Under the pieces are notes generated by a model. It made no database searches. It saw only the letters and a program-made list of their open reading frames with translations, and was not told the origin of the DNA. A stretch of DNA of 64,000 nt from a virus (taxonomy: Duplodnaviria > Heunggongvirae > Uroviricota > Caudoviricetes): IMG/VR virus record IMGVR_UViG_2675903313_000009. One strand, 5' to 3'. This document shows positions 2,412 through 53,314 of the stretch, in pieces (the first letter of the stretch is position 1; each line of letters opens with the position of its first letter). A program made the translations under genes and the position numbers.

Positions 2412-5400
2412 TTGGACATGGAACAGTTCAAGAAGAAAAAATTACCGCTTCTTATTGCCGGTGCTGGTGGCAAGAAAAGTAAAAGCTCCAGCCGTACCCC
2501 GGTTGAAGCTGATGATACTGTCAATTCTCGTGCTATGGCAGCCATCCTCGACCTTCTTGGCGAGGGGGTTATCGGTGGCCTGGTAAATGGCGCAAAGTCG
2601 ATCTTCATCGACGATTTACCGATCTTGAATGAAGATGGCTCTTCCAACTTCAGCGGTATTACATGGGATTTTCGTGACGGCTCACAAGACCAGACGCCAA
2701 TGGCTGGTTTTGATTTTGTTGAAACGCCTAAGTCCGTAAATATTCAGCTTAAAAAAACACACGACGTTACGGTTTCAATCGATAACGATGAAGCTGATCG
2801 CGTTCGTGTCATCATGAAATTCCCCTCTTTACGTAGCGTTGATAAAAGCTCTGGCGATACAAATGGCACTACGGTGAAGTACAAATTCCAGATCGCCAAC
2901 GCAGACGCAACATTTTCTGATGTAGTGGCAGAAGGTGAGAAAAGCGTTGATATCACGCTAACGGCAAAGAAAACCGGCGTGTATTACCGTAGCCATGAGC
3001 TGAAACTGCCTAAGCCTGGTCGTGCATACAAGGTTAGGGTGATTCGTCTTACAGATGATAATAGTAGCCAGTACCTCTACAACGACACATGGGTTGATTC
3101 CATCGGTGAGATTGTCGACACGCCAATGAACTACCCTAACTCTGCTCTTGTTGGCTTGAAGGTCAATTCAGAGCAGTTTGGTAGCACAATGCCTTCCCGT
3201 TCGTATTTGGTGCGCGGTATCAAAATCCGAGTACCGTCAAACTACAACGAATACACCAATACTTATGTCGGCGTATGGGACGGTACTTTTAAGCTGTTGT
3301 CTTCTTCAAACCCTGCGTGGATTCTCTACGATTTGCTTACCAATACTCGGTATGGTCTTGGGCAATTTGTGTCGGAATCCATGATTGACCTCGGCCAGCT
3401 CTACCAGATTGGTCGATATTGTGACGAAGAGGTCGATGATGGCTTTGGGGGTAAAGAGAAACGCTTTGCAATCAATACGCAGATCACCAGTCGACAAGAC
3501 GCATACCGATTAATTCAGGATATTGCCGGTGCATTCCGCGGCATGGTGTTTTGGGCTGGTGGCATGGTTAACATCATGCAGGATAGCCCATCAGATCCGG
3601 TAATGATGTTTACCAACTCCAACGTCAAAGATGGACTGTTTACCTATAAAGGTTCTGCGCGTAAAGATCGCCCATCCGTTGCGCTCGTAACCTACAACAA
3701 CAAGGAGGACGGTTATAAGCAAAATATCGAGTACGTTGAAGATCAGGACGCAATGCGCCGTTATGGTGAGCGTAAAACAGAAGTCGTAGCATTTGGATGT
3801 ACAAGCCGAGGCCAGGCTCACCGAGTTGGTTTGTGGCTTTTGTATACCGCCAGAATGGAGTCGGATGTAATTACATTTACTGCCGGCTTAGACGCCTCAT
3901 TTCTGATGCCCGGTGAAACCGTTCTGATTCAGAACAAATATCGTGCAGGTAAACGTAACTCCGGTCGAATTGTGGAGTTTACCAAAAACAGCATCACTCT
4001 CGATGCGCCTGTGTCGTTAGCTAAAAGCGGCAGCTTTATTCGGATATTGAATCAGGAAGGCAAAATCGTTGAACGCGATGTTCTTGAAACTGGCGAAAAC
4101 ATAACAAAGGTTACGTTTTCAAAAGCCCTGTCGTCAGCGGAAACGCCTGTTTTGAACGGTGTCTGGACAATTACAGAACCAGATCTCGAACCTATGCGCG
4201 TTCGCATCGTTAACATCGCGCAGGGGGAAACGCCGGGTAGCTTTGACATCACCGCTGTTGAGAACAATCCGTCTAAATATGAGGCAATCGACAATGGTGC
4301 AACGCTGATCCCGCAGAATACGACGGTATTGGACCCAACTTACTCCAAGCCATCTAATCTGCAAATCACTGAAGGGACTTATCTCTCAAGCCCGGGCAAC
4401 CTGTCAGTAAAACTGACTGCAACATGGGAAGGAAAATCTCCAGAGTATTGGATCAGTTGGCGACGTTCTGATGAAAACAATGTATCGAACTGGCAATCGG
4501 CGCGTGTAACCGAAGAGCAATACGAAATCGTTAATGTCGCGGAGAATGGACGCTACGACTTCCAGCTGTATGCGGTTTCATTCAACGGTAAAAAAACAGA
4601 GATTATCAGTACCGTTTATCAGGTGTTGGGCACAATGACACCGCCGGATGCCCCAACGTCATTAACGGCCGTTGGAGACTATCGTAATGTGATACTGAAT
4701 TGGGTTAATCCAGATTCGGTAGACCTTGATCACATTAATGTTTACGCATCCCAGACCAACAATCTGGATACGGCGAAACTGATCGCAGAGTCTGCAAGCA
4801 CCACCTTTACACATGCTGGTCTTGGGGATAGCGAAACGTGGTATTACTGGGTTCGAGCATCGAACAAGCGAGGTATGTTAAGTCCTCCGAACTCAAACTT
4901 GGGTACAGAGGCGGCAACTCGCGATGTACTGTCGTTCCTGACTGGCAAAATTACATCTTCCGAGCTTGGTCAGGCTCTGCTTGAGGACATCAACAGCAAA
5001 GCCTCTCAAGAAGCAGTTGACGAGTTAAATGAGCATATCAACCAGAGCGTCGAATCTTTGGAGGGGGCGGTAAACGACGTTAAGGAAGATATAGCTGAAT
5101 TAGATAAGCAGTTCAGCGATAACCTCGCGAATTTTGAAATAAAATTCAACGAGCGTAGCGATGCTTTGGAGAACGCACAAACCGAGCTTAAAGGTGAGGT
5201 TTCGGCAACGATCGACAAGGTCAATGAAGCGTTTGAAAAAATTGATGCTACTGATGCTGCAATTGTTGAAATCGAAAACACCGTATCTGAACACGATAAA
5301 GCTCTCGCTAATACAGTCGAGGCAATAAAGGCTGCAAGAGATGAAGCGGCGGCTCTTATTGCTAAGGAAAGCGAGGCTCGTGTTGAAGGCGATGCTGCAA

Positions 5401-25217: not shown

Positions 25218-26536
25218 AAAAGTTGATCGCACTTAAGCATAAGCTGGACGAAATGAAAGCTATGGGAACCAATGCAAAAAAAGAGGCATTGGCCAACATG
25301 GATGACTTCGAGCAAAGCATGGTTTCATTGATGCTCAACCCTTTCATCCGTTTTGGGGTAAAGAAATACAAAGTGGCAGAGCCGCTTAGTGAGTCCATCC
25401 CAAGTGACGAAAAAGCCATTGATGTACTGAATAAGCTGGCCTCTCGCGAGCTAACGGGGAACGCAGCAATAGCTGCTGTTGAGTCTATCGTGGCGTCAAT
25501 GTGCGCCGATGGGCAGGACGTGTTCCGTCGTTTCCTCTTAAAAGACCCGAAAGCGGGTGTTGGGATTAGCCTATGCAACAAGGTTTTTGAAAATCCCATT
25601 CCGAAATTCGAGGTGCAGCTGGCGTCACCGTATAAAGAAAAAGGCGACAAATACCCCTTCAAGCCAAATCCTAAAGCAAAATGGCCGATGATTGGCAGCC
25701 TTAAGCTCGATGGTTTGCGAGTAATTTGCGAGGTTATTGTTGACGAAGAAGAGGTTAACTTCCTTTCTCGTACTGGTAATCCAATCACGTCTCTCGATCA
25801 CCTAAAGCCAGCCATGCTCGAATTAGGCAAACTTTCAGGCCACAAACACATCTTCTTCGATGGTGAAGGCACAGCCGGTTCATTTAACCAGTCCGTATCT
25901 GCATTGCGCAAAAAGAACGTGCAGGCAATTGGCGCTATTTATCATATTTTCGACTTCTTCCTACCGGAATGGCGAGCACAGGCTAAATCCAAAGAGTATG
26001 CAAAGACAGGTATGAAGCTGAAAGAGCGCCTGGCTATGCTGGTGGCGTTGTTCAAAAACGATCGCAGTGAAGGCTACACACAAGACATTCACCTGCATCC
26101 GTTCTATATCATCCATAGCCACGAAGACTTCATCGAACGCTTCATGAAACGCCTGGACGATAACGAAGAAGGGGAGATGGGCAAAGATCCGAACTCTGTT
26201 TACGAGTTTAAACGTACCCGCAGCTGGTGGAAGTTAAAAGACGAAGATTCAGAAGATGGTGAAATTATCGACTTTGAGCCGGGCGATCCGGACTCTGGTT
26301 TTGCCAACACGCTTGGAAAAATTGTTATTCGCCTTGAAAACGGTGTGATTGTTCGTGCGAGCGGCATTAAGCATAAATATCTGGACGAGATCTGGAACAA
26401 CAAAGAGAAGTACCGTGGTCGTATTGTCGAGGTTCATTGTCACGAGAAAACGCCGGATGGCAGCTTACGCCACCCACGACTGAAATGGCCGCGTTGCTTA
26501 CGCGATACAGAAGATCGAATCGGAGATAAAGAATGA
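25214..26536 (+). CDS. ATP-dependent DNA ligase
   Basis: Nucleotidyltransferase motif I KLDGLR (in IGSLKLDGLRVICEV); 440 aa. Confidence 0.85.
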   Translation: MKKLIALKHKLDEMKAMGTNAKKEALANMDDFEQSMVSLMLNPFIRFGVKKYKVAEPLSESIPSDEKAIDVLNKLASRELTGNAAIAAVESIVASMCADGQDVFRRFLLKDPKAGVGISLCNKVFENPIPKFEVQLASPYKEKGDKYPFKPNPKAKWPMIGSLKLDGLRVICEVIVDEEEVNFLSRTGNPITSLDHLKPAMLELGKLSGHKHIFFDGEGTAGSFNQSVSALRKKNVQAIGAIYHIFDFFLPEWRAQAKSKEYAKTGMKLKERLAMLVALFKNDRSEGYTQDIHLHPFYIIHSHEDFIERFMKRLDDNEEGEMGKDPNSVYEFKRTRSWWKLKDEDSEDGEIIDFEPGDPDSGFANTLGKIVIRLENGVIVRASGIKHKYLDEIWNNKEKYRGRIVEVHCHEKTPDGSLRHPRLKWPRCLRDTEDRIGDKE

Positions 26537-26712
26537 TGCTCGGTTGGATGATTGCATTTTTAGCAGTTGGTTTTTTCATAGGTATTGTGGTGATGTCCAG
26601 TTGCATCAATGACTACATTAAAAGCGGTGTTATAGAAAGACGCGGTCGTATTTATCGCATTGTAGAAATAACCAACACCGTGAAGGAGATTAAGGATGAT
26701 CGTATTAAGTAA
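26533..26712 (+). CDS. Small membrane protein (59 aa)
   Basis: Below track length cutoff; ATG overlaps the ligase stop (ATGA); TM helix then GRIYRIVEIT motif. Confidence 0.35.
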   Translation: MMLGWMIAFLAVGFFIGIVVMSSCINDYIKSGVIERRGRIYRIVEITNTVKEIKDDRIK

Positions 26713-26911
26713 ACGGGAGAAGGAAACGCTTCATGAAATCAGTAAGTGGCCGGAGTTCCCTGAGTACTGGAAGCCTAAAACGCGAGCTAAGTTAGAGCGT
26801 TTAGGGTTGGTTGCAAACGTTTCTGAAACGTGGTGTTCGGCCAACTACCAGTTAACTGATAAAGGGAAAGTATTGCTACAGCAATTAGTAGAATCAGGAG
26901 TGTTAAAATGA
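26696..26911 (+). CDS. Small hypothetical protein (71 aa)
   Basis: Track ORF with AAGGAG RBS. Confidence 0.4.
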   Translation: MIVLSKREKETLHEISKWPEFPEYWKPKTRAKLERLGLVANVSETWCSANYQLTDKGKVLLQQLVESGVLK

Positions 26912-27060
26912 TTCCATACATCTCATTAGCTTTTATGGGTGGCTTCCTTATCGGCTTCGGCATCTGTCGTGATTTAATTAAGCAGGAACTTAAAACCAAA
27001 ACACTGTGCATCGGAAAGCGTGTGTATCGGGTAGTTCATGAAACAAAGGTGAAAAAATGA
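26908..27060 (+). CDS. Small membrane protein (50 aa), paralog of 26533-26712
   Basis: ATGA overlap with previous gene; TM helix then GKRVYRVVHET motif. Confidence 0.35.
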   Translation: MIPYISLAFMGGFLIGFGICRDLIKQELKTKTLCIGKRVYRVVHETKVKK

Positions 27061-27347
27061 TCAATTTGACTTCTTGGAACTGGTGGTTGGCCACCTATTT
27101 CTTAGCGGCCGGAGTCGCATTCGCCTTTTACGTAGGTCAGTTAGTCGTAAAACTGTTGCTGATTAAATTTGCTAGTCATAAACGTATCGATGATGGTCTG
27201 TGGCGTCTTGGCACCCTGGTGGAAATTCGCTACGGGCAACTTAAGGAGAACGAAACCATTACTATCCAAGCGAAACGATTCACTGCCACCATTACAAGAA
27301 CACCTAGTCGTAGAGTGGCCTTGATCAAAAAAGTCACAACCGAATAA
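27057..27347 (+). CDS. Small membrane protein (96 aa)
   Basis: Track ORF; ATGA overlap with previous gene; N-terminal TM helix. Confidence 0.45.
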   Translation: MINLTSWNWWLATYFLAAGVAFAFYVGQLVVKLLLIKFASHKRIDDGLWRLGTLVEIRYGQLKENETITIQAKRFTATITRTPSRRVALIKKVTTE

Positions 27348-27737
27348 AAACATATTGATAAGTATTTACTTACTTATCTTTTGTGTATAAGATGACTTTG
27401 TTTTCGTTGAGACGCGACTGTTTGAACTTAAATACAAGTGCAAACGAAGAAGTCTATCTGGCAGTAGCCTAATAAGCCAAACACCAGCGAGGTCAGTTTC
27501 CAGCCTCGTTACCGAAATGGGACACACTGAGCGAGTGTGATTGCAGAACGCAGGAGGGAACATTCATGTTCCCTCCGATGAAGTAACAGAATGGGCGGTT
27601 GGTATATTTTCAACTCCATATGACTCCCGGATTCTTAGCCACTGACCGCCCATCCTGTTACGTCATTTTGTTCAATTATGTCGTTTATACTGGGTTAAAA
27701 AGCGGCGACGTAGCCCGGCTGGTATGGTTAGCCAGCA

Positions 27738-27859
27738 CACAACGTTGAGGCCATTACATTTTTATCAATTCTAAGGTTCTATTCACAGAGATACCGGCGA
27801 ACGTTGATATGTAACATGTTGGGCAAACATTCAATCGGAGTAGTGGCCTCAACGTTGTG
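27738..27859. repeat. Long inverted repeat (16-bp arms CACAACGTTGAGGCCA / TGGCCTCAACGTTGTG, about 90-nt loop)
   Basis: Perfect complementarity read directly; first of three related stems around the tRNA genes. Confidence 0.6.
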
Positions 27860-28125
27860 AAGACGGGATTGTTGTGTAGGTTTAACCACTGTTGCCATTG
27901 GTGCCTGTTTTCACAACAAATGATTCCATACATCACATAGTATAAATTACAAAGTAGGTGCTGTCCTCAGAAACATCATCTACTTAAAGATTTTGCCTTC
28001 TACTATTGAGCGAAGTCGAAAGCGTCTGGCACTAACGAAAAGTGCAAGTAGCGGTGCGTTTCCTGGCAGAAACTAAACCGTCGCGATTGGCACTGTTGAG
28101 TAATAAATACTGGCAGTGCTGAATT

Positions 28126-28200
28126 GATGGTGTAGCTCAGCGGTAGAGCAGTTGGCTGTTAACCAACTGGTCGGTGGTTCGAATCCACCCACCATCGCCA
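28126..28200 (+). tRNA. tRNA-Asn (anticodon GTT)
   Basis: Hand-folded cloverleaf: acceptor GATGGTG/CACCATC, anticodon loop CTGTTAA, T-loop TTCGAAT, encoded CCA. Confidence 0.8.
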
Positions 28201-28205
28201 ATTTA

Positions 28206-28292
28206 GGGGAGTTAGTCCGTAGAGGTAGCGGTGTAGACTGTAAATCTACTGTCATGGCGACTCGGGTGGTTCGACTCCATCACTCCCCACCA
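28206..28292 (+). tRNA. tRNA-Tyr (anticodon GTA), long variable arm
   Basis: Acceptor GGGGAGT/ACTCCCC, anticodon stem-loop GTAGA-CTGTAAA-TCTAC, T-loop TTCGACT, CCA end; D-arm not fully canonical in my fold. Confidence 0.65.
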
Positions 28293-28296
28293 AATT

Positions 28297-28372
28297 GCCG
28301 GTTTAGCTCAGTTGGTAGAGCAGTCGCTTTGTAAGCGAATGGCCAGCGGTTCAAGTCCGTTAACCGGCACCA
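28297..28372 (+). tRNA. tRNA-Thr (anticodon TGT)
   Basis: Acceptor GCCGGTT/AACCGGC, D-arm AGCTCAGTTGGTAGAGC, anticodon loop TTTGTAA, T-loop TTCAAGT, CCA end. Confidence 0.8.
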
Positions 28373-28373
28373 A

Positions 28374-28462
28374 CACAACAGGTAAGAGCATTGGGCGAAT
28401 CGGCGATACTGACCCACAAGGCCGTAAATCGATAGAGTCAGACCAGTGCTCTTACCGTTGTG
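28374..28462. repeat. Long inverted repeat (about 20-bp arms CACAACAGGTAAGAGCATTGG / CCAGTGCTCTTACCGTTGTG)
   Basis: Between tRNA-Thr and tRNA-Ser; one bulge and one mismatch. Confidence 0.6.
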
Positions 28463-28562
28463 ATGAATGCACAGGCTGATGTGCCGCAACTACAGTAGTG
28501 CGCGCTTTGCGGGGCTTGCTACAACCCTGTGTCGGAGTTCAGTACCGACCATCACAATAGCT

Positions 28563-28649
28563 GGAGAGTAGGGAGCATGGTGCTCAAGCGGTCTTGAAAA
28601 CCGTTCCATTGTGCAAACGATGATGGTTCGATTCCATTACTCTCCGCCA
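28563..28649 (+). tRNA. tRNA-Ser (anticodon TGA), long variable arm
   Basis: Acceptor GGAGAGT/ACTCTCC, anticodon stem-loop GCGGT-CTTGAAA-ACCGT, T-loop TTCGATT, CCA end. Confidence 0.7.
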
Positions 28650-28650
28650 G

Positions 28651-28729
28651 ACACAGCGTTGAGCGGTTTGGCCTTTTAATCAACTCGATTAAGACTCCGC
28701 TAACATAAACCAGACCGCTCAACGCTGTG
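28651..28729. repeat. Long inverted repeat (20-bp arms CACAGCGTTGAGCGGTTTGG / CCAGACCGCTCAACGCTGTG)
   Basis: Directly after tRNA-Ser; one mismatch; arm sequence related to the 27738 repeat. Confidence 0.6.
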
Positions 28730-28806
28730 ATAGATAATTACGGCAGACGTTCTTAACCATAGCTTGCTAACATCTTAGCAACACTTTTTTCAGCGCAAAA
28801 TTCAAA

Positions 28807-28826
28807 GGGGCTTCGGCCCCTTTTTT
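28807..28826. terminator. Bidirectional rho-independent terminator
   Basis: GGGGC-TTCG-GCCCC hairpin flanked by an A-run upstream and T-run downstream; lies between the tRNA cluster and the convergent gene 28842-30104. Confidence 0.7.
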
Positions 28827-28841
28827 GTTGAACAGTGCAAT

Positions 28842-30104
28842 TTACTTTACATAGTCGCCCAGTTTTAATATTTCGCGCTTATATTCTTTAACCATGCTAC
28901 TGGATTCAGTATAAATTCGATTTAAAAGATTATCGCTATCTTTATTCTCATTTATCTTAATGAGTGATAATTTAAATTCATAGTCATCAAATGCCACAAT
29001 CAAATGGTGGCCTGGGATTATATCTTCGTCACTCTTGAAGTATATATCTTCAAGTATGTAATCTAGTTGATTAGATTTTCTTTTCTCGATGTAATCTTCA
29101 GCCATAGCTATTACATCATTCCTGTCATTTAACCTGTTTTTTTCGGAAGGCACATCTTCGTAATGTTGCACGATTGAACAACCAATAAGGCGTGGGATGT
29201 AAACGTCAAAATGAGTAACTCTATCATTCGCGGTTTTAAGTTGTTCCTCAAAGTAGTTTCTTACATGTAAAGGCAACTTCTCAAAGTAATCATTAATTAT
29301 AGGAGAACAAGGAGTTTTATAATTCATAAGAACCGACGGTACGAGCTGTGGGCGTCGAAACATCCAGTCCCTTTTAACGTCCGATGGAACATAATAACTT
29401 TTAATGATATTATCAAAATAATTTATCATTCGAGATTTGAATATTTTATTGAATCTAAGGTTTATGAATGTATCCAGATAAGGCATATTTGAATAAGCAT
29501 CATCAAAAAATATTTCATCATTGAAAAAATCATATTTATTCAATAAACAACACAGTTTTTCCGAATTAATATGTTCACAATAATCGATTTTTAATCCAAA
29601 GATAGCAATGATCAACTTCATCTGAGGTGGGATTTTAAAAATTAATTGTGATACATACGCTCTTTTTTCCTTGAGACATTCCCCATCAATATAAAATGAA
29701 CTATCCACATACTCAAATATATTAATAATATGCTTCACATACTGTATTACCTCATGCTGTTTTACCAATGGGTAATAGAGTCTATGTAACTCATCGCTGT
29801 TTAAATTAATTTTGTGTTTATCGATAATTTGTTTTGCAAGAAGACATAACGCATCATGTTGATTTAATAAGGAATCAAACCATTGTTTAAATGCACTCTT
29901 TCGCATTTCGAACAATGATTCAGTTGTTAATTGAAGGGCTGAAAAAGCTGCTTTTGCACTTTTTCTCGCTTCGTAGGCATTCCATGCTGTTGCTATAAAA
30001 GCAAATGCTGTAGCCAATGTTCCAACAGTTTGACCATTTAAAACAACCCAATCCCAAAAAATAACGGTGAGCAGTAGTATAATAATGAAAATTAAAAAAG
30101 GCAT
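28842..30104 (-). CDS. Hypothetical membrane-anchored protein (420 aa), strongly AT-rich
   Basis: Only long ORF in a markedly AT-rich segment; N-terminal TM helix (MPFLIFIIILLLTVIFWDWVV...); Ile/Lys/Asn/Tyr/Phe-rich; no motif recognised. Confidence 0.6.
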   Translation of the reverse strand: MPFLIFIIILLLTVIFWDWVVLNGQTVGTLATAFAFIATAWNAYEARKSAKAAFSALQLTTESLFEMRKSAFKQWFDSLLNQHDALCLLAKQIIDKHKINLNSDELHRLYYPLVKQHEVIQYVKHIINIFEYVDSSFYIDGECLKEKRAYVSQLIFKIPPQMKLIIAIFGLKIDYCEHINSEKLCCLLNKYDFFNDEIFFDDAYSNMPYLDTFINLRFNKIFKSRMINYFDNIIKSYYVPSDVKRDWMFRRPQLVPSVLMNYKTPCSPIINDYFEKLPLHVRNYFEEQLKTANDRVTHFDVYIPRLIGCSIVQHYEDVPSEKNRLNDRNDVIAMAEDYIEKRKSNQLDYILEDIYFKSDEDIIPGHHLIVAFDDYEFKLSLIKINENKDSDNLLNRIYTESSSMVKEYKREILKLGDYVK

Positions 30105-30734: not shown

Positions 30735-31838
30735 ATGAAAAATAGCTTTGACAGAGCACGCGCTGCGGAGAACACCTCAAAAGAGGCGATTGAGTATCTC
30801 GAAAGAGCATCTCAAATGCAGGCCGTTATGATCTCGCAGGTCAGCAATGACATGAGATTCTCGGACGCATTCATGTTATTCACTCGCTTATCTCTGCTGA
30901 TAACAAGACGTCGGCCAGAGATCGCTGTTCATTGTATTTTGATACATGTTTTGCCGCACATTGCCGATGTAAAAGTAAGTGACATTAATAGGTTCATGGT
31001 GAACCAACTGGTCAACCCACTAATACTGGATGGCAAAATTGTTATGGGCCGCCGCGTTTTCTCTCTGATGAAGCAGTTCCTTAGCTGGTGCGCCTTCCAG
31101 GGGATGATAGACGTGTCACCGTTAAACGATATGTCACTAAACAAAGTTGCCGGTGGCGCAAAGCCCACACCTCGCGAGCGGAAGCTGACCGACGCAGAGG
31201 TATGGGTGTTCTGGAATATATGGGACTACTTCAATGTGTGCGCTGGTACAAAATGGGCGGCCAGGCTGTGTCTTGTATCCGCAAGACGACCTGACGAAGT
31301 ACTGCGGGCTAAAAAAAGTGAGTTCAATCTTAAGCGTGGGGTTTGGAATCAAGGCAAGAGGAACAAATCTGCCCGTGAGCATTCGCTGCCTTTAAGCACA
31401 TTAATGCGCACATGTATTGAAGAGTTGTTCGAATACGGTAAAGGCAGCCAGTGGCTCGTGCCTTCGAATAAAAAAATCGGGAAAGACCTTCCTATGTCTA
31501 AAGTGGCAATAGCCCAGGCATTACGTCGTATCCTGGAACGACCAGAACTGATGGAGCTTGAGCCATTTACACCCCGAGACTTGCGCCGTACTGCGCGTAG
31601 TTACTTCCCAGCATTAGGCATAAGCCAGGAGGTATCACGCAAAATCATGAACCACAGTCTTGAGGGGATAGATCGAGTCTACGACCGGCACGATTATATG
31701 GACGAGATGCGAGACGCCTTAGAAAGTTTCTCGACGTACATCGCATCAATCGTAGAGCAACCGGATTTAGACGAAATTGACCACAAATTCAAGGGAGATC
31801 GTCTATCAACAGAGCTTATTCGTGTAAATTTTTCATAG
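30735..31838 (+). CDS. Tyrosine recombinase / integrase-like protein
   Basis: C-terminal half has catalytic-type blocks (..ARRPDEVL.., ..TPRDLRRTARSY.., ..NHSLEGIDRVYDRHDY..); the usual His of the H-x-x-R box appears as Arg; start uncertain. Confidence 0.6.
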   Translation: MKNSFDRARAAENTSKEAIEYLERASQMQAVMISQVSNDMRFSDAFMLFTRLSLLITRRRPEIAVHCILIHVLPHIADVKVSDINRFMVNQLVNPLILDGKIVMGRRVFSLMKQFLSWCAFQGMIDVSPLNDMSLNKVAGGAKPTPRERKLTDAEVWVFWNIWDYFNVCAGTKWAARLCLVSARRPDEVLRAKKSEFNLKRGVWNQGKRNKSAREHSLPLSTLMRTCIEELFEYGKGSQWLVPSNKKIGKDLPMSKVAIAQALRRILERPELMELEPFTPRDLRRTARSYFPALGISQEVSRKIMNHSLEGIDRVYDRHDYMDEMRDALESFSTYIASIVEQPDLDEIDHKFKGDRLSTELIRVNFS

Positions 31839-32219: not shown

Positions 32220-32469
32220 TGTTACAACCTTTGCGCGTTCAATTCTCTCTGGTAAGTGCTTACCGATATTACATCAAAGGTTAGGGTTGTAAAGCTATTA
32301 TCATTTTTTCGATAGGCACTTAAAAGACCGGTTAAAGGCCATTGCACGGAGAAAAATTAGCCCAAAACAGGTAAGAAAATTAACTTGCATATGATATGAA
32401 TGTATTCAGTATTGATATAAATTTTAGTAGTATTCCTTACCATAGTATAAGTTAGAATGGATTGATTGA

Positions 32470-51401: not shown

Positions 51402-53314
51402 AGTTTTTAAAGCTCCAGGTTGAGAATTTTATGGCTATCGCCAGCGCGGAGGTCGAGTTAGATCAGCGTGGTTTAGTGCTCATTCAGGGTGTTAATAGTG
51501 ATGATAGTTCCGCATCAAGTAATGGCTCTGGAAAGTCAACGCTAATGAATAGCCTGATGTGGTGTCTTTATGGCGAAACAGCTCATGGTGTGAAGGGTGA
51601 CGATGTGTTGTCTACCGACCATGAAAAGAACTGTCGTGTTGCAGTAACCATCGAGGATGAAGGCAAGAGATATGCGATCATTCGTCACCGTAAACACAAA
51701 GAGTTCAAAAATCGGCTTATCGTTCGTGGTGAAGACGGCGATATGACGAAAGGCAAAGATGCGCTGACGCAAGAGTTCGTCGAGCGTCTGATCGGTGCAT
51801 CTAAAGAGGTTTTCATGGCTTCCATCTATGCGAGCCAAGAAGCTATGCCAGATTTACCTGGAATGTCCGACAAAAACCTCAAAACCATCGTAGAAGAAGC
51901 CGCTGGCGTTGACAGACTGACACGCGCCTACGCTATTGCTCGTGAGCGAGCTAATGCAGCTGCCGCACGTATGGATGTGGTTAAAACCAAATTGGAGTCG
52001 ACAATCTCGACCATTGAGGCAACACAGTCAGAAATTGAGTCAGCGAAAGCCTCCTCTGAATCATGGGAGCAAGAGCGTTCTAAACGTTATGACGATGCCC
52101 TGGCTGGGCTGGCCAGTGCCGAAGTTGAGTTAACGGAAGTTGAACTTGAGATCCGCACTCTTCCCGAACAGATCCGTGATACCGAGAAGGCAATCGAAAG
52201 TGAGCGCAAAAAGTTAGCCTCAAAAGAAGAACATGACGCCAAGTTGCTCAAAGTTCGTGGTGCGATAACTGATATTCGGGCAAGCATCAAAGCTACAGAA
52301 AATAGTCAGGCTGATGCAATGAACCGCGCGCGTAATTTTAAGACCAAAGCAGAAGAGGTTGGTACTAAAGTGGGATCACCATGCCCTACTTGTGGCAAAG
52401 CCTACTGCGAAGAAGATCTATCAACGGTGAAGGAGAATTTCATTGAACAAGCACGTCAGGAAATTGGTCAGGCGAAGACACTTGCAGAGGCAATGGCTAA
52501 ACACAAAACGAATCTTGAGAAAGCGTTAAGCATTGAGTCTGCCCTTGTTAAAACGACACCTGATGTAACGGCTATCATTGCCCGGATTGAAGAGCTTACG
52601 AAACAACTCTCATCTTTGCGTCATCGTGAGAAGGAGGTTGTTGCTATTGAGTCTCTTGTGACTCGTGCTCGTACTGAGGTCGATCGTATATCAAAAGAGA
52701 TTAATCCGTTTATTGCTCTTATCGCCAGACACGAAGATAACCTGGTATCCAGTAAGTCTACCTTCAAGTCCTTAAAAGATGAGTTGAAGGCTATTCAGGA
52801 ACAAACGTTGCTATTGGAAAAAGCTCGTCAGGTCTACTCTCCTGCCGGGGTGCGTTCTCATATTTTGACGTCTGTTACGCCTTTCCTGAATACACGCACT
52901 GCCGAGTATCTCAATACGTTGTCTGACGGGAATATTACTGCTGAGTGGTCGACGATGGATGTCACTAAAAAAGGTGAGTATCGCGACAAATTCAACATTA
53001 GTGTGCAGAAGAAAGGTTCAAGTAAGTCGTTCCAGACCCTCTCTGGTGGTGAGAAGCGGAAGGTTCGCATTGCGTGTTCTTTGGCATTGCAGGATCTGGT
53101 TAGCAACCGGGCGAGTAAAAACATCGATTTGTTTATCGGCGACGAAATTGACGATGCACTCGATACAGCCGGTCTTGAACGCCTCATGGGTATTCTGGAG
53201 TCCAAAGCTCGCGAGCGAGGTACTGTGCTGATTATCTCCCATAAAGAGATGAAGTCATGGTTCCGGGAAACTATTACGCTGGAAGTTAAAGAGGGGCGCA
53301 GCTATGTCGTTTAA
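51398..53314 (+). CDS. SbcC/Rad50-like SMC-family ATPase
   Basis: Walker A GSGKST, zinc-hook-like CPTCGK within a long coiled coil, signature LSGGEKRKV, Walker B LFIGDEIDDALD. Confidence 0.85.
   Translation: MKFLKLQVENFMAIASAEVELDQRGLVLIQGVNSDDSSASSNGSGKSTLMNSLMWCLYGETAHGVKGDDVLSTDHEKNCRVAVTIEDEGKRYAIIRHRKHKEFKNRLIVRGEDGDMTKGKDALTQEFVERLIGASKEVFMASIYASQEAMPDLPGMSDKNLKTIVEEAAGVDRLTRAYAIARERANAAAARMDVVKTKLESTISTIEATQSEIESAKASSESWEQERSKRYDDALAGLASAEVELTEVELEIRTLPEQIRDTEKAIESERKKLASKEEHDAKLLKVRGAITDIRASIKATENSQADAMNRARNFKTKAEEVGTKVGSPCPTCGKAYCEEDLSTVKENFIEQARQEIGQAKTLAEAMAKHKTNLEKALSIESALVKTTPDVTAIIARIEELTKQLSSLRHREKEVVAIESLVTRARTEVDRISKEINPFIALIARHEDNLVSSKSTFKSLKDELKAIQEQTLLLEKARQVYSPAGVRSHILTSVTPFLNTRTAEYLNTLSDGNITAEWSTMDVTKKGEYRDKFNISVQKKGSSKSFQTLSGGEKRKVRIACSLALQDLVSNRASKNIDLFIGDEIDDALDTAGLERLMGILESKARERGTVLIISHKEMKSWFRETITLEVKEGRSYVV

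What the first reader, a model, noticed from the sequence alone, without database searches (positions are those of the whole stretch)
27738..28729. Family of three long, related inverted repeats interleaved with the four tRNA genes
Arms of 16-20 bp with near-perfect complementarity occur at 27738/27844, 28374/28443 and 28651/28710. The first and third share the core CACA-R-CGTTGAG. They sit before tRNA-Asn, between tRNA-Thr and tRNA-Ser, and right after tRNA-Ser. They are far longer than ordinary terminator stems and lack T-runs, so they may be RNA-processing determinants, small structured RNAs, or remnants of a repeated mobile element.
Basis: seen in the sequence. Interest (0 to 1): 0.5.

Follow-up and report, generated by a model that had tools for sequence, protein, structure and literature searches.

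The report
Conserved phage RNA hairpins flanking tRNAs
The three long inverted repeats are real copies of a conserved, strand-specific RNA hairpin found in many enterobacterial phages; they most likely mark where RNase III cuts a multi-RNA transcript, as its relative in the E. coli dicF operon appears to do.

Summary
There are three 19-20 bp stems at 27738-27859, 28374-28463 and 28652-28729, all on the + strand. Shuffled windows give about 0.01 such hairpins per strand.

The window is an SSU5-like phage-plasmid. The hairpins lie in a roughly 1.5 kb non-coding island with four tRNA genes and end at a terminator at 28804-28830.

A covariance model built only from other phages finds all three, at 64, 39 and 28 bits, always better on the + strand. 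In that family 14 of 19 stem pairs covary. A U-G wobble, a bulged A and a U-U mismatch are conserved.

Hairpin 2 is fused to a second conserved domain at 28457-28561 (75 bits). This domain is a junction fold with tRNA-like topology and complementary loops.

The hairpin-plus-domain module occurs in P1, lambdoid phages, and prophages of Enterobacterales and Aeromonas. No Rfam family matches it.

A family member lies upstream of dicF in E. coli K-12 Qin, where the published RNase III-dependent 5' end of the 190-nt DicF species maps inside its 3' arm.

Best reading: these are RNase III processing or stability hairpins of a phage tRNA/ncRNA operon. The reasons for the conserved sequence and for the attached domain remain open.

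The parts
27738..27859 (+). Hairpin 1, a CACAAC-type 'domain A' hairpin of the GTTGAG subtype: 20-bp stem with an 82-nt loop.
   Evidence: Model R1 scores 38.9 bits on + (E 6e-8 over 64 kb) against 22.0 bits on -. The Klebsiella phage p4727 orthologue keeps the stem through compensatory changes (GGCC/GGCC to GACC/GGTC; ATTAC/GTAGT to ACTGG/CCAGT) while the loop diverges.
27854..27917 (+). Short closing-stem domain after hairpin 1. GUUGUGAAGA pairs with UUUUCACAAC, re-using the 3' arm GUUGUG of hairpin 1. This gives a CACAAC / GUUGUG / CACAAC arrangement.
   Evidence: Inverted repeat I9 and fold. p4727 keeps it as GTTGTGG...CCCACAAC. Model R2 does not detect it.
28126..28372 (+). tRNA-Asn (28126-28200), tRNA-Tyr (28206-28292) and tRNA-Thr (28297-28372).
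   Evidence: ARAGORN; Rfam tRNA at 75.5, 41.6 and 69 bits.
28374..28463 (+). Hairpin 2, a canonical domain A: CACAAC-A-GGUAAGAGCAUUGG ... CCAGUGCUCUUACC-GUUGUG.
   Evidence: R1 scores 64.1 bits on + (E 3e-14) against 41.4 bits on -. Absent from phage Cyrano, present once with a different interior in CMS-2020a/SCU-107, and present as two modules in CMS-2020a/SCU-175.
28457..28561 (+). Domain B, a junction fold. It has a closing stem P1 (GUUGUGAUG/CAUCACAAU), an AAU junction, P2 (GCACA-GGCUGA-UGUGC), a variable P3 and P4 (GUCGG-AGUUCAGUA-CCGAC). The P2 loop GCUGA is complementary to the P4 loop UCAGU.
   Evidence: R2 scores 75.2 bits, E 1e-16, and is the only convincing hit in the window.
28563..28649 (+). 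tRNA-Ser (UGA).
   Evidence: ARAGORN.
28652..28729 (+). Hairpin 3, domain A of the GTTGAG subtype: 20-bp stem with a 38-nt loop and no domain B after it.
   Evidence: z -9.2. R1 scores 27.6 bits on + against 16.8 bits on - with filters off. Outer pair 5 is changed on both sides relative to hairpin 1 (A-U to G-C). The arms are identical in p4727 while the loop diverges.
28804..28830 (+). Intrinsic terminator that closes the non-coding island.
   Evidence: 8-bp GC-rich stem plus T-run. The next gene, 28842-30104, is on the - strand.
27577..27667 (+). A fourth long hairpin (about 25 bp) in the same island. It is not a member of the CACAAC family.
   Evidence: I1; fold -36.5 kcal/mol, z -5.5. R1 scores only 15-16 bits, equally on both strands.
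27440..27475 (+). tmRNA-like tag reading frame (ANEEVYLAVA, then two stops) at the start of the island. This is a side observation.
   Evidence: Frame, length and stop codon are conserved in SSU5, pJN2-26, p4727 and P1. Rfam tmRNA hits are weak. ARAGORN makes no tmRNA call.

Best explanation
The three inverted repeats are RNA hairpins on the + strand. They are copies of a conserved phage element, here called the CACAAC hairpin or domain A.

They are transcribed together with the four tRNAs as one polycistronic non-coding transcript. That transcript ends at the terminator at 28804-28830.

Their roughly 20-bp stems most likely serve as RNase III cleavage sites. Cleavage would cut the precursor into pieces: the upstream RNAs, the tRNA block, the domain-B RNA plus tRNA-Ser, and the terminator tail. 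The half-stems left behind would protect the new ends. RNase P and the 3' exonucleases would then finish the tRNAs.

Shown here:
- the hairpins exist;
- they belong to one family whose stem is maintained by compensatory evolution;
- the family is strand-specific;
- it is widespread in phages;
- it often abuts tRNA 3' ends.

Inferred:
- transcription of the hairpins in this genome;
- RNase III cleavage, by homology with the Qin dicBF hairpin;
- the stabilising role of the half-stems.

Unexplained:
- why the outer CACAAC/GUUGUG pairs, the bulged A, the U-U mismatch and the U-G wobble are conserved in sequence;
- what the fused tRNA-like domain B does.
For: The structure is real and non-random.

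Family membership is shown with a model built from other genomes. H2 scores 64.1 bits, H1 38.9 bits and H3 27.6 bits, each 11-23 bits above its reverse strand.

Covariation in the 40-sequence seed is strong. 93.6% of cells are paired and 14 of 19 pairs change on both sides. 0 of 500 shuffles reach the observed values, and slid controls give 35-61% paired.

The context points to RNA.
- The island lies on the same strand as the upstream genes and ends in a terminator.
- In 131 related loci, tRNAs within 1 kb lie on the same strand 118 times and on the opposite strand 24 times.
- 19 hairpins start 5 nt or less after a tRNA-Thr or tRNA-Ser 3' end.

There is an experimental anchor.
- R1 finds a member at L133 2671-2761, between ydfC and dicF in E. 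coli K-12 Qin (32.2 bits, E 2e-7).
- Its 3' arm is 2739-2758.
- RNase III makes the 5' end of a 190-nt DicF species by cutting between positions 813 and 814 (10.1101/2023.04.14.536235).
- Counting 190 nt back from the DicF 3' end at 2935 gives about 2746.
- Counting 813 nt from the predicted dicBp start at about 1938 gives about 2751.
- Both positions fall inside that arm.
- The same paper reports loss of the upstream ydfABC RNA in a strain lacking RNase III, which fits a protective half-stem.
Against: There are no expression or cleavage data for this phage-plasmid.

The link to RNase III rests on one homologue. It also rests on my conversion of published lengths and positions into coordinates, which is good to a few nucleotides at best.

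A generic RNase III site would not need the strong sequence conservation seen here. The exact 24-nt domain-B motif occurs in 41 species representatives. Nor would it need a fused tRNA-like domain. The family may therefore have another, primary role, such as a protein-binding scaffold or an sRNA chassis.

Most family members in the sample have no tRNA within 1 kb (72 of 133), so tRNA maturation cannot be the general function.

The P1 region that carries four to five copies scored as non-essential in a CRISPRi screen (PMC10695390).
Confidence: 0.5

Rival explanations
1. The hairpin and domain B together form a stable non-coding RNA chassis. Its conserved stems display variable 'cargo' loops: the interior of domain A and P3 of domain B. 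The cargo could be decoys or mimics of host RNAs, or base-pairing seed regions. RNase III cleavage would be incidental or only one maturation step.
For: - The interiors of A and of P3 are hypervariable in length and sequence between near-identical scaffolds.
- Some interiors carry T-arm-like hairpins such as GGGTTCGAATCCC or GGGTTCATATCCC.
- One P3 type resembles 16S rRNA helix 11.
- The scaffold sequence is extremely conserved across genera.
- Some copies have their own promoter and terminator (L083-type).
- Domain B shares its layout with Rfam STnc100 and with PasD, which are Hfq-bound prophage sRNAs seen on Northern blots (PMC8550237; 10.64898/2026.05.13.724894).
Against: - The variable loops could simply be unconstrained.
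- Similarity to STnc100/PasD is below the family threshold (34.4 bits against 47; R2 gives only 13.4 bits on PasD2).
- No target or partner has been identified.
- Hairpins 1 and 3 of the window lack a canonical domain B.
Confidence: 0.25
2. The repeats act at the DNA level. They would be terminal inverted repeats of a miniature mobile element, or attC-like folded recombination sites used by a tyrosine recombinase to insert or delete tRNA/ncRNA cassettes.
For: - The module shows presence/absence and copy-number polymorphism between close relatives: 0, 1 or 2 copies between tRNA-Thr and tRNA-Ser.
- CACAA(C/T) is found on both sides of the module and once at the empty site in Cyrano.
- The outer boxes ACACAAC/GTTGTGT match the attC R''/R' consensus RYYYAAC/GTTRRRY at 6 of 7 positions (my comparison).
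- A tyrosine recombinase gene lies at 30735-31838.
Against: - The elements are asymmetric. The conserved wobble is G-U on one strand and would be A-C on the other. R1 scores are 11-30 bits higher on the strand shared with tRNAs and domain B.
- The stems are near-perfect, without the unpaired central spacer and extrahelical bases of attC sites.
- The recombinase does not match the integron-integrase model and gets only a generic integrase-domain hit.
- Lambdoid and Qin copies lie far from any integrase.
- The Qin copy is a documented RNA processing site.
- The Cyrano junction is not an exact deletion between the repeats, because 3 extra nucleotides differ.
Confidence: 0.07
3. The repeats are bacterial Y-RNA-like (YrlA-type) or other tRNA-mimic RNAs, or decayed tRNA genes.
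For: - A long terminal stem with tRNA-like pieces (T-arm-like hairpins) in some interiors recalls YrlA architecture (PMC4201824).
- Domain B has tRNA-like topology.
- About 46% of domain-B copies are followed by N-CCA within 0-4 nt, against 22% in shuffled tails.
Against: - The Rfam YrlA model gives no hit on the elements. Its only weak hits, 25.6 bits against a threshold of 69, fall on true tRNA pairs.
- The GNCGAA Ro-binding motif is absent from the arms.
- No Ro60/TROVE gene was noticed among the ORFs checked near the island.
- ARAGORN and the Rfam tRNA model call nothing in the hairpins.
- T-arm-like cargo is absent from all three window hairpins.
Confidence: 0.05
4. The repeats are transcription terminators, attenuators or pause hairpins.
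For: They are stable hairpins downstream of tRNA genes, and in lambdoid phages the module often sits right after a terminator.
Against: - No T-run follows any of the three.
- Stems of 20 bp with 38-82-nt loops are unlike intrinsic terminators.
- A canonical terminator follows at 28804-28830.
- tRNA-Ser lies downstream of hairpin 2 and would not be expressed if hairpin 2 terminated transcription.
Confidence: 0.03

Closest known systems
RNase III processing hairpin upstream of dicF in the E. coli K-12 Qin dicBF operon (Faubladier et al. 1990, as cited in 10.1101/2023.04.14.536235 and PMC5069750)
   Same: It is homologous by covariance model (R1 32.2 bits, higher on the + strand). It has the same outer CAUAAC/GUUGUG pairs, about 19 bp of stem, the U-G wobble at the same position, and sits in a prophage non-coding stretch next to a small RNA gene. 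A domain-B-like element follows dicF (R2 32.9 bits). Its 17-bp closing stem contains the position expected for the reported RNase III-made 3' end of the 72-nt DicF species.
   Different: In Qin the hairpin flanks an sRNA rather than tRNAs, and hairpin and domain B are separated by dicF. The literature I could read describes a cleavage site, not a conserved element or family. Cleavage of the window's hairpins has not been tested.
Phage RNase III sites in polycistronic transcripts (T7 R1.1-R5, lambda N-leader and sib, T4 tRNA precursor; from my own knowledge)
   Same: These are also long stems between functional units of a phage transcript. Cleavage separates the units and leaves protective half-hairpins. 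T4 offers a precedent for RNase III acting on a tRNA-cluster precursor.
   Different: There is no sequence relationship. T7 sites have internal loops. The present family has conserved primary sequence, a large variable apical region, and a fused junction domain.
Rfam RF02076 STnc100 and the PasD sRNAs of EPEC prophages
   Same: Domain B, and especially its P1c/Qin variant, shares several features with them: a closing stem ending in UGGUG, a GAAU junction, a 5' hairpin, a 3' hairpin CCGGGAGGCACCCGG, and the closing strand CACCA. Both occur in prophages near Q and the lysis genes (10.64898/2026.05.13.724894).
   Different: All scores are below the gathering threshold. They are 30-34 bits against 47 on the variants, and the window's domain B gives no hit at E up to 10. 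STnc100 and PasD have their own promoter, a single-stranded seed and a terminator, and no preceding CACAAC hairpin.
Bacterial Y RNAs (YrlA, RF02553)
   Same: YrlA also has a long stem formed by the two ends, plus tRNA-like pieces. Phage copies of YrlA are known.
   Different: There is no GNCGAA motif, no Ro60 gene nearby and no model match (PMC4201824).
Integron attC sites
   Same: attC sites are imperfect palindromes of similar length (about 57-141 bp). Their conserved outer AAC...GTT boxes resemble the boxes here, and they flank cassettes that vary in number.
   Different: The stems here are near-perfect, without the unpaired central spacer or extrahelical bases of attC sites. No integron integrase is present. 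The elements are strand-specific in the sense expected for RNA and co-oriented with transcription.

Membership tests
   R1 hits on the + strand: H2 64.1 bits, H1 38.9 bits, H3 27.6 bits. The arms can be read directly.
   All three window hairpins have the U-G at that position. The + strand exceeds the - strand by 23, 17 and 11 bits. In the seed, pair 21-117 is U-G in 28 of 40 sequences.
   Met for H2 (R2 75.2 bits). H1 is followed only by a short stem that re-uses GUUGUG. H3 has none. Solitary hairpins also occur in P1-like arrays.
RNase III processing site | About two turns of mostly Watson-Crick double-stranded RNA. | tested here: met
   Stems are 19-20 bp, with at most one wobble and one bulge.
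RNase III processing site | rnc-dependent ends inside the stem in vivo, or cleavage in vitro. | not testable with these tools
   Evidence exists only for the Qin homologue. The reported 190-nt DicF 5' end (cut between 813 and 814) maps to about L133 2746-2751, inside the 3' arm at 2739-2758.
Intrinsic terminator | Short GC-rich stem with a small loop, followed by a U-tract. | tested here: not met
   No T-run follows any of the three. The scan finds only 28804-28830 in the island.
tRNA or tRNA pseudogene | Cloverleaf detectable by ARAGORN or the Rfam tRNA model. | tested here: not met
   Only the four tRNA genes are called.
YrlA (bacterial Y RNA, RF02553) | Model score of at least 69 bits, a GNCGAA motif in the 5' strand, and a Ro60/TROVE gene within about 4 kb. 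| tested here: not met
   There is no YrlA hit on any hairpin. Weak hits of 25.6 bits fall on adjacent true tRNAs in P1-like loci. The motif is absent from the arms. Criteria are taken from PMC4201824.
STnc100 (RF02076), considered for domain B | Model score of at least 47 bits. | tested here: not met
   No hit in window 26500-30000 at E up to 10. Variants of domain B in P1 (33.4 bits), L062 and L069 (33.0 and 30.1 bits) and Qin (34.4 bits) are all below threshold.
Integron attC site | R''/L''...L'/R' boxes with an unpaired central spacer and extrahelical bases, and an IntI integrase. | tested here: not met
   The outer boxes match 6 of 7 positions, but the stems are continuous. The nearby recombinase gets only a generic integrase-domain hit and no integron-integrase model.
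Miniature inverted-repeat transposable element | Terminal inverted repeats flanked by a target-site duplication, in either orientation, with copies scattered in the genome. | tested here: not met
   Only three copies occur in 64 kb, all in one island and on one strand. Orientation is tied to tRNAs. The CACAA repeats are part of the RNA helices, and the empty site in Cyrano is not an exact excision product.

The most novel reading that the evidence does not exclude
The hairpin and its partner domain B constitute an undescribed class of phage non-coding RNA. It would be an ultra-conserved two-part scaffold, made of a long helix plus a tRNA-shaped junction locked by a 5-bp loop-loop contact. The scaffold would present hypervariable inserts, such as tRNA T-arm-like or rRNA-like pieces or antisense seeds. 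Phages and prophages of Enterobacterales would exchange it as a cassette and use it against host or rival-phage functions. It would sit within a larger 'RNA island' that also holds tRNAs, DicF-like sRNAs and a stand-alone tmRNA-like tag template.
Probability: 0.2. Interest if true: 0.8.

Novelty: new member of a known kind. Interest (0 to 1): 0.5.

Why it matters
If the reading is right, tRNA and small-RNA clusters of P1, SSU5-like phage-plasmids and lambdoid prophages share a common, portable punctuation element for RNase III. That would help explain how these non-coding islands are matured, and why they recombine so freely between unrelated phages.

It also gives a name and a searchable model to sequences now left blank in RefSeq or mis-annotated. 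In P1, the region under the minus-strand ORFs 'plp' and 'upl' is largely made of these modules.

The strong sequence conservation of the attached domain B across genera suggests a specific host partner. Finding that partner could reveal a new phage-host RNA interaction.

Tried and rejected
Rfam. Five searches were run on the window, P1, HK629, Qin and 23 related loci. No family covers the hairpin or the canonical domain B. Hits to microRNA families reflect only long hairpins.

Hammerhead or other ribozyme. The CUGAUG in P2 lacks the rest of the hammerhead core, and no ribozyme model matched.

YrlA, integron attC, MITE, terminator and pseudo-tRNA. All were tested and failed (see the membership tests).

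Literature. Ten full-text searches were run, including exact sequence strings. None found a description of the element. Faubladier and Bouche 1994 (PMC205167) is not held.

P1 CRISPRi data show only that the region is non-essential.

The Gifsy-1/RtcR lead was tangential and was dropped.

CCA after domain B. It is enriched (46% against 22%) but not universal, so it is not a defining feature.

BLAST of module interiors against the E. coli rrnB operon gave one hit only.

tmRNA. ARAGORN finds nothing at normal thresholds. At 60% it returns the ANEEVYLAVA tag among many spurious calls.

PasD2 locus. R2 scores only 13.4 bits and there is no R1 hairpin, so PasD is at most a distant relative of domain B.

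Two coordinate slips of mine cut the 5' ends of two rows in alignment A3. They do not affect the pairs reported.
Full report
**Identity of the window and the observation**

The region 27400-29000 is 94-98% identical to SSU5-like phage-plasmids of E. coli: Escherichia phage CMS-2020a and phage Cyrano. It is about 84% identical to Klebsiella relatives.

The finding lies in a non-coding island of about 1.5 kb (about 27348-28840). The island follows a DNA-ligase gene and several small + strand ORFs. It ends at a strong intrinsic terminator at 28804-28830, and the next gene is on the other strand.

ARAGORN finds tRNA-Asn, -Tyr, -Thr and -Ser at 28126-28649.
- Their stems are 19-20 bp.
- Folding energies lie 5.4 to 9.2 standard deviations below shuffled controls.
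- None has a T-run.
- A purpose-written scan finds only these three CACAAC-type hairpins in the 64 kb window.
- Shuffled windows give 0.01 per strand.

**Comparison with close relatives**

An alignment with four relatives shows three things.

First, the arms are conserved while the interiors diverge. In Klebsiella phage p4727, hairpin 1 keeps pairing through two-sided changes, although its loop is shortened and different. Hairpin 3 has identical arms and a diverged loop.

Second, hairpin 2 is part of a larger unit, 28374-28561.
- The unit is missing in Cyrano, where tRNA-Thr and tRNA-Ser are 8 nt apart.
- It is present once in CMS-2020a/SCU-107 with quite different interiors.
- It is present as two tandem units in CMS-2020a/SCU-175.

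Third, the changes between these units are compensatory. Examples are GTGATG/CATCAC to GTGGTG/CACCAC, GTCGG/CCGAC to GCCGG/CCGGC, and GAGC/GCTC to GATC/GATC.

**The same unit in unrelated phages**

Sensitive BLAST with 28373-28562 hits three kinds of phage.
- Phage P1 at 95% identity over 115 nt, inside the leader of the ban operon. There the minus-strand ORFs plp and upl are annotated.
- Lambdoid and P22-like phages, between the Q antiterminator and the holin gene.
- Siphoviruses, in a small + strand island within the tail genes.

P1 carries four copies of the hairpin, and some P1-like contigs carry five.

RefSeq annotates nothing under 667 matching E. coli records.

It also matched 41 species-representative genomes. 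Most of these are Enterobacterales, such as Erwinia, Pantoea, Rahnella, Serratia, Edwardsiella and Klebsiella. Aeromonas is also represented.

**Domain A, the hairpin**

I aligned forty non-redundant hairpins from those contigs, with none from the window. I counted pairs against the structure 6 bp + bulge + 13 bp.
- 93.6% of cells are paired.
- 14 of 19 pairs change on both sides.
- None of 500 shuffles reaches any of the five measures.
- Sliding the partner strand drops pairing to 35-61%.

The outer CACAAC/GUUGUG pairs are nearly invariant. The 3' half of this helix was part of my search pattern, but the 5' half was not.

Three irregularities are conserved:
- an unpaired A after the sixth pair;
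- a non-pair at pair 9, mostly U-U;
- a U-G wobble four pairs from the top.

The covariance model R1 built from this alignment finds hairpin 2 (64.1 bits), hairpin 1 (38.9 bits) and hairpin 3 (27.6 bits, filters off) on the + strand. Their reverse strands score 41.4, 22.0 and 16.8 bits.

The three repeats are therefore members of one family, and they are read on the + strand. The fourth long hairpin of the island, 27577-27667, scores about 16 bits on both strands and is not a member.

**Domain B**

The sequence after hairpin 2 belongs to a second conserved element (alignment A3; counts). It has these parts:
- a 9-bp closing stem whose 5' strand is GUUGUGGUG, which re-uses the 3' arm of the hairpin;
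- an AAU junction;
- a 5-bp hairpin P2 with loop GGCUGA;
- a region P3 of about 35-130 nt that differs completely between copies;
- AA, then a 5-bp hairpin P4 with loop AGAUCAGCA;
- the closing strand CACCACAAC.

The P2 loop GCUGA is complementary to the P4 loop UCAGC in every sequence. In CMS-2020a/SCU-107 both sides change (ACUGA with UCAGU).

This topology has a closing stem continuous with the 3' hairpin, a 5' hairpin whose loop contacts the 3' loop, and a variable arm between them. That is the topology of a tRNA. This is an inference from secondary structure, not a tested fold.

Model R2 gives 75.2 bits at 28457-28561 and nothing else convincing in the window.

Because GUUGUG can pair either with the upstream CACAAC or with the downstream CACAAC, the module contains two mutually exclusive helices. 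Hairpin 1 is followed by a short stem of the same kind (27854-27917). Hairpin 3 is not.

**Context**

In 131 related loci my scan found 133 hairpins.
- 61 have a tRNA within 1 kb. Those tRNAs lie on the same strand 118 times and on the opposite strand 24 times.
- 19 hairpins begin within 5 nt of the 3' end of a tRNA-Thr or tRNA-Ser.

These loci are not independent, because many are P1-like.

Other copies start a few nucleotides after an intrinsic terminator or after a small GNRA-like hairpin. Some domain-B copies have their own promoter and terminator. DicF-like sRNAs lie immediately downstream of domain B in several loci, and P1 has a dicF-like region upstream. In the 41 species-representative loci, nearly every domain-B match has an R1 hairpin ending at its start.

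The element is thus a component of phage 'RNA islands'. It is often, but not always, next to tRNAs.

**The experimental anchor**

Scanning the E. coli K-12 Qin dicBF operon with the two models gave two hits.
- A domain-A hairpin at L133 2671-2761, between ydfC and dicF (32.2 bits on +, 20.0 on -).
- A domain-B-like element at 2955-3085, between dicF and dicB (32.9 bits). Its closing stem is extended to 17 bp.

Ragunathan et al. (10.1101/2023.04.14.536235) confirm earlier work by Faubladier et al.
- A 190-nt DicF species depends on RNase III.
- The upstream ydfABC RNA disappears in a strain lacking RNase III.

I converted these reports to coordinates in two ways. DicF ends at L133 2935, so a 190-nt RNA starts near 2746. 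Counting 813 nt from the start predicted downstream of the TTGACC-17-TAATCT promoter (about 1938) gives about 2751. Both positions lie in the 3' arm of the hairpin, 2739-2758.

PMC5069750 further cites an RNase III-made 3' end that gives a 72-nt DicF. That places the cut near 2954, within the 5' strand (2947-2963) of the long closing stem of the domain-B-like element.

These coordinate conversions are mine and carry an uncertainty of a few nucleotides. Within that limit, the two RNase III sites of the only studied locus coincide with the two helices of this module.

**Mechanism proposed**

The island is transcribed on the + strand. RNase III cuts the three roughly 20-bp stems, as it cuts stems between units of T7, lambda and T4 transcripts and around rRNAs (my own knowledge). 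This separates the upstream RNAs, the three-tRNA block, domain B with tRNA-Ser, and the terminator tail. The remaining half-stems buffer the new ends against exonucleases. RNase P and the 3' exonucleases then complete the tRNAs.

I put this at about 0.5. The structural family itself is close to certain. What is not explained is the conserved primary sequence and the attached domain B. These point to an additional specific partner.

The main rival (0.25) is that the module is chiefly a stable scaffold for variable inserts.
- Some interiors carry T-arm-like hairpins.
- One P3 type resembles 16S rRNA helix 11.
- Domain B shares its layout with Rfam STnc100 and with PasD, Hfq-bound prophage sRNAs. 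The similarity is below threshold.

**Alternatives rejected**

- Terminators: there is no U-tract.
- tRNA pseudogenes: nothing is detected.
- YrlA Y RNAs: no motif, no Ro60 gene noticed among the ORFs checked near the island, no model match.
- attC-like or MITE-like DNA elements: strand asymmetry, continuous stems, no integron integrase, and orientation tied to transcription. The copy-number polymorphism and the CACAA repeats keep a small probability alive.

**Novelty**

RNase III hairpins in phage transcripts are a known kind, and the Qin site has been known since 1990.

I found three things that appear undescribed in Rfam 15 and in the searchable literature:
- this site is one member of a conserved, widespread hairpin family;
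- the family is fused to a tRNA-shaped domain;
- the family is present next to tRNAs in P1 and SSU5-like phage-plasmids.

The library lacks most subscription journals, so an older description cannot be excluded.

Noticed in passing
window 27440-27475 (context 27395-27530): There is a tmRNA-like tag template: GCA AAC GAA GAA GTC TAT CTG GCA GTA GCC TAA TAA, which reads ANEEVYLAVA followed by two stops. For comparison, the E. coli tmRNA tag is ANDENYALAA. An A-rich ...AAAUACAAGU leader precedes it. Frame, length and stop are conserved in SSU5 (ANEDTYLAVA), pJN2-26 and p4727 (ANDNQYLAVA), and P1 (ANDDLMMVAA). SSU5 has no in-frame start codon. Rfam tmRNA models give only weak hits, and ARAGORN finds no tRNA-like domain.
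   Followed up: partly
window 27577-27667: A fourth long hairpin (about 25 bp, z -5.5) is not related to the CACAAC family. Its arms are conserved in SSU5-like relatives but its loop is not. In the window, the loop contains TTCAACTCCAT, which resembles the T-arm 3' half of the tRNA-Tyr gene.
   Followed up: partly
L133 (E. coli K-12 NC_000913 1646500-1651500) 2671-2761 and 2955-3085: The dicF gene of prophage Qin is flanked by a CACAAC hairpin and by a domain-B-like element with a 17-bp closing stem. The published RNase III-dependent ends of the 190-nt and 72-nt DicF species fall in these two helices, by my coordinate conversion.
   Followed up: yes
L005 (phage P1 NC_005856 68302-71416) about 760-1900: The P1 ORFs plp and upl, annotated on the minus strand, overlap a + strand array of hairpin/domain-B modules downstream of tRNA-Asn and tRNA-Thr. 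They may not be genes. RefSeq E. coli plasmids annotate nothing there.
   Followed up: partly
L082 1953-1999 and L064 (P3 of domain B): One type of variable insert resembles 16S rRNA helix 11. It is 29 nt at 90% identity to E. coli rrsB, and an Rfam small-subunit rRNA model scores it at 36.7 bits.
   Followed up: partly
L134 (E. coli E2348/69 NC_011601 739800-744200) 1357-1530; Rfam STnc100: The Hfq-bound sRNA PasD2, and STnc100, begin with a scaffold that resembles domain B: (C)AUGGUGAAU, a hairpin, then ...GGGAGGCGCCAUG. A single-stranded seed and a terminator follow. This suggests that domain B and these sRNAs share ancestry.
   Followed up: partly
window 30735-31838 (+) and 28842-30104 (-): A tyrosine recombinase (Pfam Phage_integrase, not an integron integrase) lies 2 kb downstream of the island. 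Between them is an AT-rich 420-aa ORF with no Pfam or NCBIfam match. Cyrano has a different arrangement at that position.
   Followed up: partly
window 32367-32443 (+) and 52292-52399 (+): There are weak model hits: R1 11.3 bits (E 0.43), containing ACAGGUAAG...CUUACC, and R2 12.2 bits (E 0.51), containing CAGGCUGAUG. They are probably chance.
   Followed up: no
window 27553-27576: A perfect 11-bp palindrome with a 2-nt loop (GGAGGGAACAT / ATGTTCCCTCC) lies just upstream of the fourth hairpin. The stem is kept with different sequence in relatives.
   Followed up: no
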